From the NCBI GenBank assembly GCA_964385255.1, contig CAYLOH010000001.1:58792-122791 (forward strand): a stretch of DNA of 64,000 bases. The letters run 5' to 3'. The stretch comes from an uncultured Rubrivirga sp. (GTDB lineage Bacteria > Actinomycetota > Actinomycetes > S36-B12). Position 1 is the first letter of the stretch. Every line of letters starts with the position of its first letter. Shown one piece after another: positions 28,480 to 38,809 of the stretch. The translations under genes were made by a program, and so were the position numbers. The notes below the pieces were generated by a model. It did no database searches. It was not told where the DNA came from and saw only the letters and a program-made list of their open reading frames with translations.

Positions 28480-29193
28480 ATGGCCGGGGTAGTAGTCCAG
28501 ATCGCCCCCTCGCTCTTTCGCATTCCCACCCTCGGAGACTTCATCAACTCCTATGCGTTCCTCGACGCCGATGGCCAGGTGGCACTGGTGGACTGCGGAC
28601 TCAAGCGAGCCCCGGCACGGATCGTTCGCGCGCTGGCAGCTCTCGGCAAACATCCGCAGGACGTCACTCGAATAATCCTCACTCACGCACATCACGATCA
28701 CGCCGGTGGGGCTGCGGAACTTGTTGCGACGTCGAGTTCGCCGTCGGTTCTCGCACACCACGACGACGCGGGATTCCTACGCACCGGAACGTTGCCGCCG
28801 CGGGACGCTGCCTCGGGGCTCGGGCGGCTACTGCACCGGCTGCCCGGTGGTTCCTTCTCCCCCCTACAACATGTCGAGGAGTTGCGCGACGGCCACATTC
28901 TCGATGTGGCGGGCGGAGTGCAGGTCATCCACACACCCGGCCACACACCCGGCCACATCAGCTTGCTCCATCACGACTCCGGGACCCTCATCACCGGCGA
29001 CGCGATCTTCAACATGAACGCATCGATGACCTGGCCGTTGTCCGCCTTTTGCACTTCCTTCTCCCAAACAAAACTCACCGCCAACGTCTTGGCCGACCTC
29101 GACTACCGAACCGCTGCCTTCACCCATGGACCGGAGATTCGCGACACCGGCCGCGACGCTATTCGATCGTTCCTCTCGCGCAAGGCAGCTTGA
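28480..29193 (+). CDS. MBL-fold metallo-hydrolase
   Basis: Has the HxHxDH motif (THAHHDHAGG) and a downstream HTPGHTPGH. Confidence 0.8.
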   Translation: MAGVVVQIAPSLFRIPTLGDFINSYAFLDADGQVALVDCGLKRAPARIVRALAALGKHPQDVTRIILTHAHHDHAGGAAELVATSSSPSVLAHHDDAGFLRTGTLPPRDAASGLGRLLHRLPGGSFSPLQHVEELRDGHILDVAGGVQVIHTPGHTPGHISLLHHDSGTLITGDAIFNMNASMTWPLSAFCTSFSQTKLTANVLADLDYRTAAFTHGPEIRDTGRDAIRSFLSRKAA

Positions 29194-29510: not shown

Positions 29511-30392
29511 CTAATCGCGCCCGGACAAGATGGCGAACATGCGCAGGAACTCCAGGTACAGCCACACGAGCGTGACCAGGAGGCCGAAGGACATCCGCCA
29601 CGATTCACGCTCGGGCAGTCCCATCGCGACACCTTGCTTGATCGCTTCGAAGTCCAGAGCCAGGAAGAACGCGGCGATGGCCACACCCGCGATAGAGATG
29701 ATGATGCCAATGCCGTCGACTCCGTAGAAGCCCCAACCGCCGCCAACACCGAACATAGCGGCAACCAGCGACGCGAGGGCGAGGACGATGTACGAGACGG
29801 CAGCCACCATGAGCACCTGGGTGAAGCGCTTGGTGACCTTGATGACCCCAGTCAGGTAGAGAGTGAGCATCACGCCGAAGGTCGTCATGGTGGCAACGAC
29901 GGCTTGGAGCACGATGCCGTCCCAGCCGTTGACGACGGCGTAGGAGTTGTACCAGTTGCTGATGCCACCGAGCATCAAGCCCTCGGCGACCGCAAAGATG
30001 ACCATGAGAGCCGGCGACACGTTCTTCTTGAGCGCGTTGACGAAACCGAGGGCGATCGCAGCGATGAACACCGGGAACATCAATCCCGGGGCGGCGGCGA
30101 TCAGGTTCCAGCCGACGAACGCGAAGACCACAACCAAGCCGAACATGATCGCCGACTTCACGACGACGTCGTTCAAGGTGACGCGGACGCCACCGCCCGC
30201 CGTGATCGTCTGGAAGCGGACGTCGTCATCGGTGGGGGGTGCACCTGCGGGCTGGGAGGCCGGCTGGGGGGCGGGCACCGCCGTGGGTGCCTCGCCGGCA
30301 GCCTGGGCGAAGGCCGATCGGCCCTCCGCGTAGGCGAATCCGGGGGCATCGGCCTTCTCATAGCGCGACAGGACAGGGTTATTCGTCTGCAT
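29511..30392 (-). CDS. Bax inhibitor-1/YccA-family membrane protein
   Basis: Starts at ATG 30392 (MQTNNPVLSRYE). Has a Pro/Ala-rich linker followed by 7 TM helices. The tracked N-terminal extension runs across the tRNA and is discarded. Confidence 0.8.
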   Translation of the reverse strand: MQTNNPVLSRYEKADAPGFAYAEGRSAFAQAAGEAPTAVPAPQPASQPAGAPPTDDDVRFQTITAGGGVRVTLNDVVVKSAIMFGLVVVFAFVGWNLIAAAPGLMFPVFIAAIALGFVNALKKNVSPALMVIFAVAEGLMLGGISNWYNSYAVVNGWDGIVLQAVVATMTTFGVMLTLYLTGVIKVTKRFTQVLMVAAVSYIVLALASLVAAMFGVGGGWGFYGVDGIGIIISIAGVAIAAFFLALDFEAIKQGVAMGLPERESWRMSFGLLVTLVWLYLEFLRMFAILSGRD

Positions 30393-30466
30393 ACGTCCAC
30401 GGTAACCCATGGGGGCCGAGCCGCCAAGTGAACGCGCACCCCGATCGGCTCGCCCTCGGCGAAGGG

Positions 30467-30540
30467 TGCCCTCGATGGGATTCGAACCCATACTGTGCCG
30501 GGTTTAAGCCGGGTGTCTCTACCAGTTGGACTACGAGGGC
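30467..30540 (-). tRNA. 74-nt class I tRNA with UAA at the anticodon position (nominally Leu UUA/UUG)
   Basis: Minus-strand read: GCCCTCG-TA-GTCC-AACTGGTAG-AGAC-A-CCCGG-CTTAAAC-CCGGC-ACAGT-ATGGG-TTCGAAT-CCCAT-CGAGGGC-A. It has a perfect 7-bp acceptor stem, a perfect T arm, GG in the D loop, U33, A37 and a 5-nt variable loop. There are C13:A22 and C27:C43 mismatches, and no encoded CCA. Confidence 0.8.
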
Positions 30541-30602
30541 TAGCACCTGGTCTGCCACATGATCCCGTACCCGCGGATGCGAACTCCCCTACCCTGGCCG
30601 TC

Positions 30603-31142
30603 ATGTCCGGCGGTACGCGAAGCATCGGCACCTGGGTGCTCCTGGTGGCGCTGGGGGTGGGCTCGGTGGCCGGTGGATTCGGGGCGGGCACCTGGTGGCA
30701 GTCGAGAGATACCGGGCCCGAGCGCGCCCTGTGGGTGCTCGCCCACAACGCCGATGCCGCGCAATTGACGCCCGCTGCCGAGGGGCTGTTCACCCTGAGC
30801 ATGTCGCCATCGGACGCACAGGTCCTGGCGGTTCGCAAGGACGCCGGGGGCGCCAGTGAACTCATCCCGTTGCCGCGACTGGAGAGCGAGTGGCAAGACA
30901 TGTTCGGTGACGAGTCGGTGGCCCTGACGCTTCTCGTCCACGAGGCACCCGACGATGCCGATCCCGACTCGCCCTCGGCCGCACGCATCGAATTGCTGTC
31001 AGCAGCGCCCGTCGTGGACGGTGATCTCGTCACCTATCCGGTCGAGGTCGTTCGTCCGTCGGTTATCGCTGATGATGCGGTCCTGCGCGCCTTCACCCGC
31101 GTGACGCTGCTACTACCCGAGGCGGAGCGAACGGTCGACTAG
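30603..31142 (+). CDS. Hypothetical membrane-anchored/secreted protein
   Basis: Starts at ATG 30603. Has an N-terminal TM (IGTWVLLVALGVGSVAGGF). No recognised domain. Confidence 0.5.
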   Translation: MSGGTRSIGTWVLLVALGVGSVAGGFGAGTWWQSRDTGPERALWVLAHNADAAQLTPAAEGLFTLSMSPSDAQVLAVRKDAGGASELIPLPRLESEWQDMFGDESVALTLLVHEAPDDADPDSPSAARIELLSAAPVVDGDLVTYPVEVVRPSVIADDAVLRAFTRVTLLLPEAERTVD

Positions 31143-37545: not shown

Positions 37546-37732
37546 ATTTGGTATCCCTGCGCGCTCGCCCCTGGAATCGGCCGCTCGCCGGACGACAGGA
37601 AGCTTTCGACGAATCCCTGCCAACGCTTGCAGACCGCTGGGTAGGCTGCCGGCACAACCGAATACGTGCATGTCGCACGCCCACTCTTACAACGGATCGT
37701 CCGGCACGTTCCTGCCGGTGAGAGGAACCACC

Positions 37733-38809
37733 ATGAGTCAGCCTGTTCGCTTCGACGACGTATCACTCGTCTACCCCGGCACCACCGCACCCGCCGTCTC
37801 GCATCTGAACCTGGACATCGGCGAAGGCGAGTTCCTCGTCCTCGTCGGTCCCTCCGGATGCGGCAAGTCGACATCGCTGCGGATGCTCGCAGGGTTGGAA
37901 CCCATCAGCGCCGGTCACATCTACATCGGTGACCGCGACGTCACCAACGTCGCGGCAAAAGACCGCGATATCGCGATGGTCTTCCAGAACTACGCCCTCT
38001 ACCCGCACATGTCCGTCGCCGAGAACATGGCCTTCGCCCTCAAGATCCAGAAGGTGTCCAAGGATGAAATCGACAGGCGGGTAAAGGAAGCCGCGGCCCT
38101 CCTGGATCTCACCGAGTACCTCGATCGAAAGCCCAAGGCACTCTCGGGTGGACAACGGCAGCGCGTGGCAATGGGGCGTGCGATCGTGCGCGAGCCACAG
38201 GTGTTCTTGATGGACGAACCGCTATCGAACCTCGATGCGAAGCTGCGCGTGCAAACGCGCACCCAGATTGCGGCCCTGCAGCGTCGACTGGGAACCACCA
38301 CCGTCTACGTCACGCATGATCAGGTCGAGGCCATGACGATGGGTGACAGGGTCGCGGTGTTGAAGGCGGGGGTCTTGCAGCAGGTCGACACCCCACGCGC
38401 GCTGTACGACGAGCCGGCCAATGCCTTCGTGGCGACCTTCATCGGATCCCCGTCGATGAACATCGTTCCGTGTGCCGTCACGCCAGACGGGTTGAGGATG
38501 GGCGAGCACACGGTCCCGATCGAGCGCTCACGCCTCGACCAGGTTCGCGGCGGCACAGCGCTGCTCGGAATACGTCCCGAGGATTTGCATATCGCGCAGG
38601 ACGGTGCCCCGATGACAGTGACACTCGTCGAGGAGTTGGGGGCGGACACGTTCGTCTACGGGGACATGAGCACCTCGGACGGGACGACCGTGAACCTCGT
38701 CGCTCGGGATCGGTCGCAGACATCTCCCCGTATGGGTGATGTGGTGCGGGTGCGTCCGGAGCGGACCTATGTCTTCCACAGTGACGGAGCGCAAGAGCGC
38801 ATCGTCTGA
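37733..38809 (+). CDS. Sugar ABC transporter ATP-binding protein (MsiK/MalK/UgpC-like)
   Basis: Starts at ATG 37733. Shows Walker A GPSGCGKST, the signature LSGGQRQRVAMGRA and a C-terminal TOBE-like domain. Confidence 0.9.
   Translation: MSQPVRFDDVSLVYPGTTAPAVSHLNLDIGEGEFLVLVGPSGCGKSTSLRMLAGLEPISAGHIYIGDRDVTNVAAKDRDIAMVFQNYALYPHMSVAENMAFALKIQKVSKDEIDRRVKEAAALLDLTEYLDRKPKALSGGQRQRVAMGRAIVREPQVFLMDEPLSNLDAKLRVQTRTQIAALQRRLGTTTVYVTHDQVEAMTMGDRVAVLKAGVLQQVDTPRALYDEPANAFVATFIGSPSMNIVPCAVTPDGLRMGEHTVPIERSRLDQVRGGTALLGIRPEDLHIAQDGAPMTVTLVEELGADTFVYGDMSTSDGTTVNLVARDRSQTSPRMGDVVRVRPERTYVFHSDGAQERIV

What the first reader, a model, noticed from the sequence alone, without database searches (positions are those of the whole stretch)
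30467..30540. Well-formed class I tRNA carrying a UAA anticodon, a specificity normally held by long-arm class II tRNA-Leu
The fold is textbook: a 7-bp perfect acceptor stem, a TTCGAAT T-loop, GG in the D-loop, U8, A14 and discriminator A. The anticodon loop reads C-U-UAA-A-C, so positions 34-36 are UAA, which decodes UUA/UUG.

Bacterial tRNA-Leu species have a long variable arm. This one has a 5-nt variable loop and is 74 nt long. It also has C13:A22 and C27:C43 mismatches.

UUA should be among the rarest codons in this GC-rich genome, although it is used: there is an in-frame TTA at 1168-1170 in the antiporter gene. In Streptomyces the UUA tRNA (bldA) acts as a regulatory device.

Possibilities include a non-canonical Leu decoder, a Phe- or Lys-like body that has acquired a new anticodon (a mistranslation or recoding risk), a tRNA used outside translation, or a decaying gene.
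Basis: seen in the sequence. Interest (0 to 1): 0.55.

Follow-up and report, generated by a model that had tools for sequence, protein, structure and literature searches.

The report
Ordinary actinobacterial short-arm leucine tRNA
This is a real, well-conserved leucine tRNA that lacks the usual long extra arm, but that short form turns out to be the normal UUA-reading leucine tRNA across Actinobacteria (Mycobacterium tuberculosis has the same one), so it is ordinary, not an anomaly.

Summary
Window 30467-30540 (minus strand) encodes a 74-nt cloverleaf tRNA with anticodon UAA and a 5-nt variable loop (ARAGORN; Rfam tRNA 57.4 bits).

The premise that bacterial tRNA-Leu always has a long arm does not hold in this phylum. 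The body carries the leucine identity set: A73, A14, A15:U48, and a Leu-type D-arm with a 3-bp stem, C13·A22 and A20a.

It aligns without gaps to M. tuberculosis H37Rv tRNA-Leu(TAA) and tRNA-Leu(CAA). Both are 74 nt and short-armed, and they are its two best matches among 40 Mtb tRNAs.

The same gene sits upstream of the Bax-inhibitor gene in relatives down to 60% protein identity, and in other actinobacterial orders. Covariation is strong (99% paired; 16 of 20 pairs with double changes).

Fan et al. 2019 showed that Streptomyces coelicolor LeuRS leucylates a type I tRNA-Leu(CAA) with a near-identical variable loop. TTA occurs at about 1 per 1000 codons here, so this looks like a housekeeping UUA/UUG decoder.

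Decay, a Phe/Lys-derived body and recent phage origin are rejected. A role outside translation and a bldA-like switch have no support. Charging was not tested here. Interest is low.

The parts
30467..30540 (-). tRNA-Leu(UAA), type I (short variable loop), 74 nt from G1 to discriminator A73
   Evidence: ARAGORN. Rfam RF00005 at 57.4 bits, full-length. An identical tRNA occurs in a Candidatus Nanopelagicales genome, L200. Orthologues are found in L008 and L011-L017.
30534..30540 (-). Acceptor stem, 5' strand (GCCCUCG). It pairs with 30468-30474.
   Evidence: All 7 pairs are Watson-Crick. Six of the 7 pairs show changes on both sides across 109 distinct homologues.
30515..30531 (-). D-arm of tRNA-Leu type: 3-bp stem GUC/GAC, C13·A22, loop AACUGGUAG with A14, A15, G18G19 and A20a
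   Evidence: Direct reading. The same architecture is seen in Mtb and M. smegmatis Leu-TAA and Leu-CAA. It matches the E. coli Leu identity elements listed in PMC9976931.
30497..30513 (-). Anticodon arm CCCGG-CUUAAAC-CCGGC. The top pair C27·C43 is mismatched.
   Evidence: Rfam alignment. The arm is invariant in seven of the eight sequences of alignment A2 (the window plus seven relatives' loci); L011 alone has U43 in place of C43. All 5 pairs covary across the wider set.
30504..30506 (-). Anticodon UAA (the + strand reads TTA). It decodes UUA, and UUG by wobble.
   Evidence: ARAGORN places the anticodon at position 35. The Rfam loop placement agrees.
30492..30496 (-). 5-nt variable loop ACAGU (positions 44-48). 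U48 is the partner of A15 in the Levitt pair.
   Evidence: U48 is present in 106 of 109 distinct homologues and was not fixed by the search pattern. S. coelicolor type I tRNA-Leu(CAA) has ACAGC at the same positions (PMC6614811).
30475..30491 (-). T-arm AUGGG-UUCGAAU-CCCAU
   Evidence: Four of the 5 pairs show changes on both sides.
30467..30467 (-). Discriminator A73
   Evidence: A73 is present in 119 of 119 genomic homologues and was not fixed by the search pattern.
29511..30410 (-). Bax-inhibitor-1/YccA family gene (299 aa), directly downstream of the tRNA on the same strand. It serves as the synteny anchor and is not part of the tRNA.
   Evidence: P0001 is 100% identical and carries Pfam PF01027 and PF12811. 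The tRNA-BaxI linkage is seen in L008 and L011-L017 and in 23 genome loci from several orders.

Best explanation
This is the housekeeping tRNA-Leu(UAA) of an uncultured actinobacterium close to Candidatus Nanopelagicales. It belongs to the natively short-armed (type I) UUR-reading leucine tRNAs that are the normal form in the phylum Actinomycetota.

Inferred mechanism:
- The single LeuRS charges it with leucine. Recognition would rest on the acceptor end and on the tertiary core built by the Leu-type D-arm (A14, A15:U48, G18G19, A20a), not on a long variable arm.
- It then decodes UUA, and UUG by wobble from U34, which is probably modified.

What is shown here: the gene and its fold, the leucine identity elements, vertical conservation with compensatory changes, orthology to the mycobacterial tRNA-Leu(TAA), and real use of TTA codons in the window.

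What is inferred: expression, leucylation, and that it is the only UUA decoder in this particular genome.
For: The gene and its fold:
- ARAGORN and Rfam agree on the tRNA call and on UAA at positions 34-36.
- On 124 homologues (109 distinct), 99.0% of cells are paired. Sixteen of 20 pairs have changes on both sides. The covariation score is 0.631, against 0.165 for shuffles and at most 0.19 for slid partners.

Leucine identity:
- A73 is present in 119 of 119 homologues and U48 in 106 of 109. Neither position was constrained by the search pattern.
- The D-arm has the tRNA-Leu architecture. The review PMC9976931 lists A73, A14, A15-U48, G18G19 and A20a as the E. coli determinants and reports that the long arm is dispensable there.

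Vertical inheritance:
- The same tRNA lies upstream of the BaxI gene in relatives with 91% to 60% BaxI identity.
- The same linkage appears in 23 genome loci from Nanopelagicales, Dermatophilaceae, Arthrobacter, Demequina, Nonomuraea, Blastococcus, Propionibacteriaceae and others.
- In 109 of 120 genome loci it is the only tRNA within 8 kb.

Reference genomes:
- The tRNA lists in supplementary file 5 of PMC11541572 show that M. tuberculosis H37Rv and M. smegmatis each have one Leu-TAA (74 bp) and one Leu-CAA, both short-armed. Their Leu-CAG, Leu-GAG and Leu-TAG are long-armed.
- The window tRNA aligns to these without gaps, at 70% identity to Leu-TAA and 80% to Leu-CAA.
- They are its two best matches among 40 Mtb tRNAs.

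Biochemical precedent:
- S. coelicolor LeuRS leucylates its type I tRNA-Leu(CAA), whose variable loop is ACAGC, with kcat/Km about half that for the type II UAA species. The authors could not delete the CAA gene (PMC6614811).

Codon use:
- TTA makes up 19 of 17,670 codons in 50 ORFs of the window, spread over 17 ORFs.
Against: - Nothing here measures expression or which amino acid is attached.
- The complete tRNA set of the source genome could not be inspected, so a second, long-armed tRNA-Leu(UAA) cannot be excluded for this organism. Streptomyces has such a gene, bldA.
- No promoter-like or terminator-like site was found within 30300-30750. The scan covers only the sigma-70 consensus and is weak for high-GC actinobacteria.
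- The single-sequence fold is not by itself better than shuffles (z = -1.79).
- The top anticodon-stem pair is a C·C mismatch.
- One relative, L009 (BaxI 85%), has no tRNA within 5 kb upstream of BaxI, in a rearranged context.
- Fan et al. report that not every bacterial LeuRS charges a type I tRNA-Leu. The LeuRS of this organism was not examined.
Confidence: 0.9

Rival explanations
1. It is a mischarging or recoding tRNA: a Phe-, Lys- or other class I body that acquired a UAA anticodon, so UUA/UUG would be read as a non-leucine amino acid.
For: The tRNA has class I geometry. One base change (G34U) would turn a Phe(GAA) anticodon loop into this one (sequence reasoning only). Deliberately mistranslating tRNAs are, as I recall, described in Streptomyces relatives.
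Against: - The nearest of 40 Mtb tRNAs are Leu-CAA (61 of 74 identical) and Leu-TAA (55 of 74). Phe is not in the top 12, and Lys-CTT and Lys-TTT rank tenth and twelfth.
- The D-arm is Leu-type (3-bp stem, A20a) and A15:U48 is conserved.
- The UAA anticodon is tied to this body across a phylum, and in Mtb and M. smegmatis it is the only Leu-TAA gene.
- The sister type I tRNA-Leu(CAA) is leucylated in vitro.
Confidence: 0.02
2. It is a phage-derived or horizontally acquired tRNA, either a prophage remnant or an integration-site duplicate, and not a native core gene.
For: Full-length matches at 75-81% identity to short tRNA-Leu genes occur in Pseudomonas, Microcystis, Bacillus and Rhodococcus phages, and partial matches (82% of the query, 77% identity) in Streptomyces phages. 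A viral-contig scan hit its 120-locus limit with 107 UAA and 12 CAA short-arm tRNAs.
Against: - The gene sits in conserved chromosomal synteny (DLH, UDG, tRNA, BaxI, cystathionine beta-synthase) in relatives down to 60% BaxI identity, and next to BaxI in several orders.
- No integrase or phage gene was seen among the called neighbours.
- GC content is flat across the region.
- The viral loci are mostly low-GC (median 0.40), so they come from other hosts.
- An ancient exchange between phages and the actinobacterial ancestor is not excluded, but it would not change what the gene is today.
Confidence: 0.04
3. It is a bldA-like regulatory tRNA, whose limited or timed supply gates translation of a few TTA-containing regulators.
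For: It has the same anticodon as Streptomyces bldA. The genome is GC-rich (about 63%), so TTA is the rarest Leu codon.
Against: - TTA runs at 1.08 per 1000 codons and is present in 17 of 50 ORFs, including ordinary metabolic and transport genes.
- S. coelicolor has only 145 TTA codons in its whole genome (PMC6614811).
- bldA is a type II tRNA, which is a different structure.
- Timing of expression cannot be tested here.
Confidence: 0.03
4. It is a tRNA used outside ribosomal translation (for example as an aminoacyl donor for cell-wall or natural-product synthesis), or a decaying pseudogene.
For: Only the two non-Watson-Crick positions (C13·A22 and C27·C43) and the unusual class point this way.
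Against: - Decay is refuted. The anticodon arm is invariant in seven of the eight aligned sequences (the window and seven relatives' loci), and compensatory changes elsewhere are abundant.
- The T-loop and D-loop elements needed for the ribosome and EF-Tu are canonical.
- There is no biosynthetic cluster around it.
- In the reference mycobacterial sets it is the only tRNA able to read UUA.
Confidence: 0.01

Closest known systems
Mycobacterium tuberculosis H37Rv tRNA-Leu(TAA) (74 bp, 1177396-1177469) and its M. smegmatis counterpart, as listed in supplementary file 5 of PMC11541572
   Same: Same anticodon, same 74-nt length, a 5-nt variable loop, the same Leu-type D-arm, A73 and U48. They align without gaps at 70-72% identity. 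In those genomes it is the only Leu-TAA gene.
   Different: The anticodon-stem sequence differs. Mtb has A7-U66 where the window has G7-C66. The window lineage has C27·C43. The genomic neighbourhood in mycobacteria was not compared.
Streptomyces coelicolor type I tRNA-Leu(CAA) (Fan et al., Nucleic Acids Res 2019; PMC6614811)
   Same: It is a short-arm bacterial tRNA-Leu from an actinobacterium, with variable loop ACAGC against ACAGU here. It is charged by the organism's only LeuRS, and a 5-nt loop length is required for charging. The window tRNA is 80% identical to the mycobacterial Leu-CAA of the same kind.
   Different: It is a different isoacceptor (CAA against UAA). In Streptomyces the UAA isoacceptor (bldA) is type II and dispensable. 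The S. coelicolor sequence itself was not available for alignment.
Phage-encoded short tRNA-Leu genes (for example Bacillus phage P59 UAA, Pseudomonas phage vB_PseuGesM_254 UAG and CAA, Streptomyces phage JXY1 UAG)
   Same: Same overall design: GUAG(Y)CCAA..GGYAGAG(R)C D-arm, a 5-nt variable loop ending in U48, and A73. Identity is 68-81%.
   Different: They lie in phage tRNA clusters, mostly in low-GC phages of unrelated hosts, and carry several anticodons. The window gene is a solitary, syntenic chromosomal gene.
Animal mitochondrial tRNA-Leu(UUR)
   Same: It is a type I tRNA-Leu with anticodon UAA, with A73 and A14 as identity elements (PMC9976931).
   Different: It is an organellar, structurally relaxed tRNA with its own LeuRS. 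S. coelicolor LeuRS does not charge it. No specific sequence relationship was tested.
Canonical bacterial type II tRNA-Leu(UAA) (E. coli leuZ, Streptomyces bldA)
   Same: Same anticodon, A73, D-loop sequence pattern (AAYYGGUAGA), 3-bp D-stem with a 13·22 mismatch, and A15:U48. The E. coli sequence is from my own knowledge; the identity set is.
   Different: It has a long variable stem-loop (17 nt in bldA) where this tRNA has 5 nt.

Membership tests
tRNA (Rfam RF00005) | Covariance-model score above the curated gathering score, over the full length of the model | tested here: met
   57.4 bits against 29, model positions 1-71 of 71, E 9e-10. ARAGORN agrees.
tRNA (Rfam RF00005) | Cloverleaf helices maintained by compensatory substitutions in homologues | tested here: met
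   99.0% of cells paired. Sixteen of 20 pairs have double changes. Covariation score 0.631 against 0.165 for shuffles and at most 0.19 for slid partners.
Bacterial tRNA-Leu (LeuRS identity set defined in E. coli) | Discriminator A73 | tested here: met
   A73 is in the window and in 119 of 119 genomic homologues. It was not constrained by the search pattern.
Bacterial tRNA-Leu (LeuRS identity set defined in E. coli) | A14, the A15:U48 Levitt pair, and G18G19 with A20a in a D-loop on a 3-bp D-stem | tested here: met
   All are present in the window sequence. U48 is present in 106 of 109 homologues. The D-arm positions were fixed by the search pattern, so their invariance in the sample is not independent evidence, but Mtb and M. 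smegmatis Leu-TAA and Leu-CAA, which came from another source, share them. The determinants are as listed in PMC9976931.
Bacterial tRNA-Leu (LeuRS identity set defined in E. coli) | Long variable arm (class II architecture) | tested here: not met
   The variable loop is 5 nt, ACAGU. This feature is typical but was shown to be dispensable for leucylation in E. coli and in S. coelicolor.
Bacterial tRNA-Leu (LeuRS identity set defined in E. coli) | Aminoacylation with leucine by LeuRS | not testable with these tools
   This needs a charging assay. The only support is precedent, namely the S. coelicolor type I tRNA-Leu(CAA).
Actinobacterial type I (short-arm) UUR-reading tRNA-Leu | 5-nt variable loop combined with a Leu-type D-arm and A73 | tested here: met
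   The loop ACAGU differs by one base from the S. coelicolor CAA loop ACAGC.
Actinobacterial type I (short-arm) UUR-reading tRNA-Leu | Closest relatives within a complete reference tRNA set are the type I Leu-TAA and Leu-CAA | tested here: met
   Among 40 of the 45 Mtb tRNAs, the top two matches are Leu-CAA (61 of 74 identical) and Leu-TAA (55 of 74). Next come Arg-CCT and Glu-CTC.
Actinobacterial type I (short-arm) UUR-reading tRNA-Leu | Vertically inherited chromosomal gene across the phylum | tested here: met
   Synteny with BaxI holds in 8 close loci and in 23 loci from several orders. About 102 of 120 sampled genome hits are Actinomycetota.
Actinobacterial type I (short-arm) UUR-reading tRNA-Leu | Sole tRNA with anticodon UAA in its genome | not testable with these tools
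   Only 64 kb of the source genome is available. The feature holds in the Mtb and M. smegmatis lists.
bldA-type regulatory tRNA-Leu(UAA) of Streptomyces | Type II structure with a long variable arm | tested here: not met
   The loop here is 5 nt. bldA has 17 nt.
bldA-type regulatory tRNA-Leu(UAA) of Streptomyces | TTA codons nearly absent and confined to a few regulatory or developmental genes | tested here: not met
   Nineteen TTA in 17,670 codons, in 17 of 50 ORFs.
Phage-encoded tRNA | Located in a phage or prophage genome or in a tRNA cluster | tested here: not met
   It is the only tRNA in 64 kb, the neighbours are conserved housekeeping genes, and there is no compositional break.

The most novel reading that the evidence does not exclude
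The single gene is ordinary, but the pattern behind it may be under-described. The UUR-reading leucine tRNAs (UAA and CAA) appear to be natively short-armed across nearly the whole phylum Actinomycetota. They also occur in some Planctomycetota and other phyla, and the same design is very common in phages of unrelated, mostly low-GC hosts.

This contradicts the statement, still made in a 2023 review, that tRNA-Leu has a long arm everywhere except animal mitochondria.

It also raises a question: do phages favour this compact Leu tRNA because it is chargeable by many LeuRS enzymes, or because it escapes host tRNA-targeting defences?
Probability: 0.3. Interest if true: 0.4.

Novelty: new member of a known kind. 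Interest (0 to 1): 0.15.

Why it matters
For this window it matters little. The gene should simply be annotated as tRNA-Leu(UAA).

The general point is more useful. Automated or manual screens that flag a class I tRNA with a Leu anticodon as anomalous will fire on essentially every actinobacterial genome. The textbook rule "bacterial tRNA-Leu is class II" has a phylum-sized exception for the UUR isoacceptors.

That exception bears on LeuRS recognition studies, on orthogonal tRNA design, and on the interpretation of phage tRNA repertoires.

Tried and rejected
- An exact look-up of the 293-aa BaxI reading (start at MQTNNP) found nothing, because the gene call on record starts 6 codons upstream. 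This was solved through the homologue search.
- A promoter and terminator scan around the gene found nothing. It is uninformative for a high-GC actinobacterium.
- The single-sequence MFE z-score is only -1.79. The structure was therefore supported by covariation instead.
- The first literature searches, on 'class I tRNA', 'UAA anticodon' and 'short variable' with bacteriophage, returned nothing relevant. The relevant paper surfaced with 'tRNALeu' plus 'variable arm' plus 'Actinobacteria'.
- Supplementary files of PMC6614811 are not held, so the S. coelicolor tRNA-Leu(CAA) sequence could not be aligned.
- The Phe- or Lys-derived body was considered and rejected.
- A prophage remnant was considered and rejected.
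- A pseudogene was considered and rejected.
- L009, a relative with 85% BaxI identity but no tRNA within 5 kb upstream, was judged a local rearrangement and not evidence of loss, because its upstream genes differ entirely.
- The search pattern required GTAG at positions 7-10, so it misses Mycobacterium itself, which has ATAG.

Full report
**1. Is it there?**

Yes. ARAGORN finds exactly one tRNA in the 64-kb window, at 30465-30540 on the minus strand, and calls it tRNA-Leu with anticodon taa. Rfam's tRNA model matches 30540-30467 end to end at 57.4 bits (gathering score 29). It aligns C-U-U-A-A-A-C as the anticodon loop, so positions 34-36 are UAA.

Read on the minus strand, the gene is GCCCUCG-UA-GUC-CAACUGGUAGA-GAC-A-CCCGG-CUUAAAC-CCGGC-ACAGU-AUGGG-UUCGAAU-CCCAU-CGAGGGC-A. 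It is 74 nt long with a 5-nt variable loop.

The 3' flank reads CCC, so the terminal A of CCA is not encoded. The thermodynamic fold of the single sequence gives the cloverleaf but is not by itself better than shuffles (z = -1.79). Structural support had to come from comparison with homologues.

**2. What the body looks like**

The D-arm is not a damaged class I D-arm. It has a 3-bp stem (G10-C25, U11-A24, C12-G23), an unpaired 13·22, and the loop A14-A15-Y-Y-G18-G19-Y20-A20a-G. This is the architecture of bacterial tRNA-Leu. E. coli tRNA-Leu has ..GG AAUCGGUAGA C.. at the same place (from my own knowledge).

Together with A73 and U48, the partner of A15, the tRNA carries every element that the review of Giegé and Eriani lists as decisive for E. 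coli leucine identity: A73, A14, A15-U48, G18G19 and A20a. The same review reports that the long variable arm is dispensable there (PMC9976931).

**3. Relatives at the same locus**

The gene downstream on the same strand encodes a Bax-inhibitor-1/YccA protein. I fetched contigs that encode homologues of this protein at 91%, 76%, 72%, 66%, 62% and 60% identity.

- All of them carry a 74-75-nt tRNA(UAA) just upstream of the BaxI gene, within a conserved DLH-UDG-tRNA-BaxI-MBL hydrolase-CBS neighbourhood. In L008 a SOUL-domain gene and one other gene separate the two.
- In the alignment of the eight sequences, the window plus these seven loci, the anticodon arm is invariant, including C27·C43; L011 alone has U43. 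The acceptor and T stems change by compensatory substitutions.
- One relative, L009 (85%), has a different upstream context and no tRNA within 5 kb. I read this as a rearrangement.

**4. How widespread is it?**

I scanned one genome per species with a pattern that demands the Leu-type D-arm, CTTAAA in the anticodon loop, and class I spacing to GTTC.

- By record title, about 102 loci are Actinomycetota from many orders. Examples are Arcanobacterium, Actinomyces, Microbacterium, Arthrobacter, Cellulomonas, Demequina, Dermatophilaceae, Nocardia, Gordonia, Corynebacterium, Amycolatopsis, Saccharopolyspora, Nonomuraea, Streptosporangium, Nocardioides, Aeromicrobium, Blastococcus, Frankiaceae, Nanopelagicales and Acidimicrobiales.
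- Eighteen loci come from other phyla: Planctomycetota, Poribacteria, Rokubacteria, Methylomirabilia, Chloroflexi, Cyanobacteria, Verrucomicrobia and others.
- ARAGORN recovers 119 short tRNA(UAA) genes of 73-78 nt. All have A73, and 118 have a perfect 7-bp acceptor stem.
- In 109 loci this is the only tRNA within 8 kb.
- In 23 loci a BaxI homologue lies next to it in the same arrangement as in the window, from Nanopelagicales to Nonomuraea, Arthrobacter, Demequina, Blastococcus and Propionibacteriaceae.
- L200, a Candidatus Nanopelagicales genome with 86.7% BaxI identity, has a tRNA identical to the window's. This places the window organism near that order.

On 124 sequences (109 distinct) the cloverleaf is paired in 99.0% of cells, and 16 of 20 pairs show changes on both sides. 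The covariation score is 0.631, against 0.165 in shuffles and at most 0.19 with slid partners. U48 is kept in 106 of 109.

**5. Reference organisms and literature**

The supplementary tRNA tables of Xu et al. (PMC11541572) list the tRNA sets of M. tuberculosis H37Rv and M. smegmatis.

- In both, Leu-TAA (Mtb 1177396-1177469, 74 bp) and Leu-CAA are short-armed. Leu-CAG, Leu-GAG and Leu-TAG are 83-89 bp and long-armed.
- Each genome has one Leu-TAA gene. The main text says the same indirectly: only Leu-2, Leu-3 and Leu-5 have long loops.
- The window tRNA aligns to these without a gap, at 70% identity to Mtb Leu-TAA and 80% to Mtb Leu-CAA.
- Among 40 Mtb tRNAs these two are its best matches. Phe and Lys are not close.

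Fan et al. 2019 (PMC6614811) showed that S. coelicolor has a type I tRNA-Leu(CAA) with variable loop ACAGC. Its single LeuRS leucylates it with about half the efficiency seen for the type II UAA species (bldA). A 5-nt loop length is required for charging, and the authors could not delete the gene.

So a short-armed bacterial tRNA-Leu is a known kind, and the UAA version is present in every standard annotation of mycobacterial genomes. General reviews still state that tRNA-Leu has a long arm everywhere except animal mitochondria.

**6. Function**

In 50 ORFs chosen by GC3, covering 83% of the window, TTA occurs 19 times in 17,670 codons (1.08 per 1000), in 17 ORFs. TTG occurs 331 times.

A UUA decoder is therefore needed for ordinary genes. 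This is unlike Streptomyces, where Fan et al. count 145 TTA codons in the whole genome.

The best explanation is a housekeeping tRNA-Leu(UAA) charged by LeuRS through the acceptor end and the tertiary core. Leucylation and expression are inferred, not shown. Whether this genome also has a long-armed UAA tRNA could not be checked.

**7. Phages**

The same design is common in phages.

- GenBank phages of Pseudomonas, Microcystis, Bacillus and Rhodococcus carry 74-78-nt tRNA-Leu genes that match the window tRNA over its full length at 75-81% identity; Streptomyces phages match over 82% of it at 77%. Their anticodons are UAG, UAA and CAA.
- A scan of viral contigs hit its 120-locus limit with 107 UAA and 12 CAA short-arm tRNAs, mostly on low-GC contigs (median 0.40) and often in tRNA clusters.

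This is a resemblance of kind. The window gene itself is chromosomal, solitary and syntenic, and there is no compositional break around it.

**8. Verdict**

The gene is a new member, in an uncultured Nanopelagicales-like actinobacterium, of a known kind, the actinobacterial type I UUR-reading tRNA-Leu. Interest is low.

The one aspect that may deserve separate attention is the breadth of the short-arm tRNA-Leu design across Actinomycetota, a few other phyla and many phages. I did not find a systematic description of it in the searchable literature.

Noticed in passing
window 37675-37733 (+): An msiK RNA element (Rfam RF01747, cis-regulatory) matches at 55.5 bits against a gathering score of 33. 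I recall this family as actinobacterial, which would fit the other evidence on the organism.
   Followed up: no
L139 3550-3912 (Planctomycetota MAG JBCCHQ010000007.1): Three short-arm tRNA-Leu genes lie in tandem, with anticodons CAG (77 nt), UAA (75 nt) and GAG (75 nt). An odd 100-nt 'tRNA-Tyr' call follows them. CUN-reading Leu tRNAs can therefore also be short-armed outside Actinomycetota.
   Followed up: no
L201 1815-4535 (Cylindrospermum sp. NIES-4074) and L183 56-4411 (Chloroflexaceae MAG): Both loci hold arrays of 26 tRNA genes. The Cylindrospermum array carries short-arm tRNA-Leu of five anticodons (TAG, GAG, CAG, TAA, CAA). The Chloroflexaceae array mixes short (CAA, TAA) and long (GAG, CAG) Leu tRNAs.
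   Followed up: no
window 28480-29193 (+); L008 6222-6935, L011 6146-6838, L014 6190-6909, L017 6155-6865: A conserved 230-239-aa metallo-beta-lactamase-fold gene lies two genes from BaxI. Its product hits the Pfam family Anti-Pycsar_Apyc1 (PF23023) as well as Lactamase_B. It is chromosomal and syntenic in all relatives examined.
   Followed up: no
L008 3637-4897: In the 91%-identity relative, a SOUL-domain gene and a hypothetical gene are inserted between the tRNA and the BaxI gene. The tRNA may mark a variable or integration-prone spot.
   Followed up: partly
L150 237-310 (contig binned as a Bifidobacterium breve MAG, CAMAWO010000186.1): This contig carries a tRNA 95% identical to the window's, including the lineage-specific C27·C43 anticodon stem. 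Either Bifidobacterium shares this exact arm or the 7-kb contig is mis-binned.
   Followed up: no
window 30495-31142 (+): The mechanical ORF (215 aa, GTG start) overlaps the tRNA on the opposite strand and is probably over-extended. An ATG that begins the residues MSGGTRS, 36 codons into this ORF, is a likelier start for this small gene of unknown function with a hydrophobic N-terminal stretch. A relative has a 182-aa gene without a Pfam hit between UDG and the tRNA.
   Followed up: no
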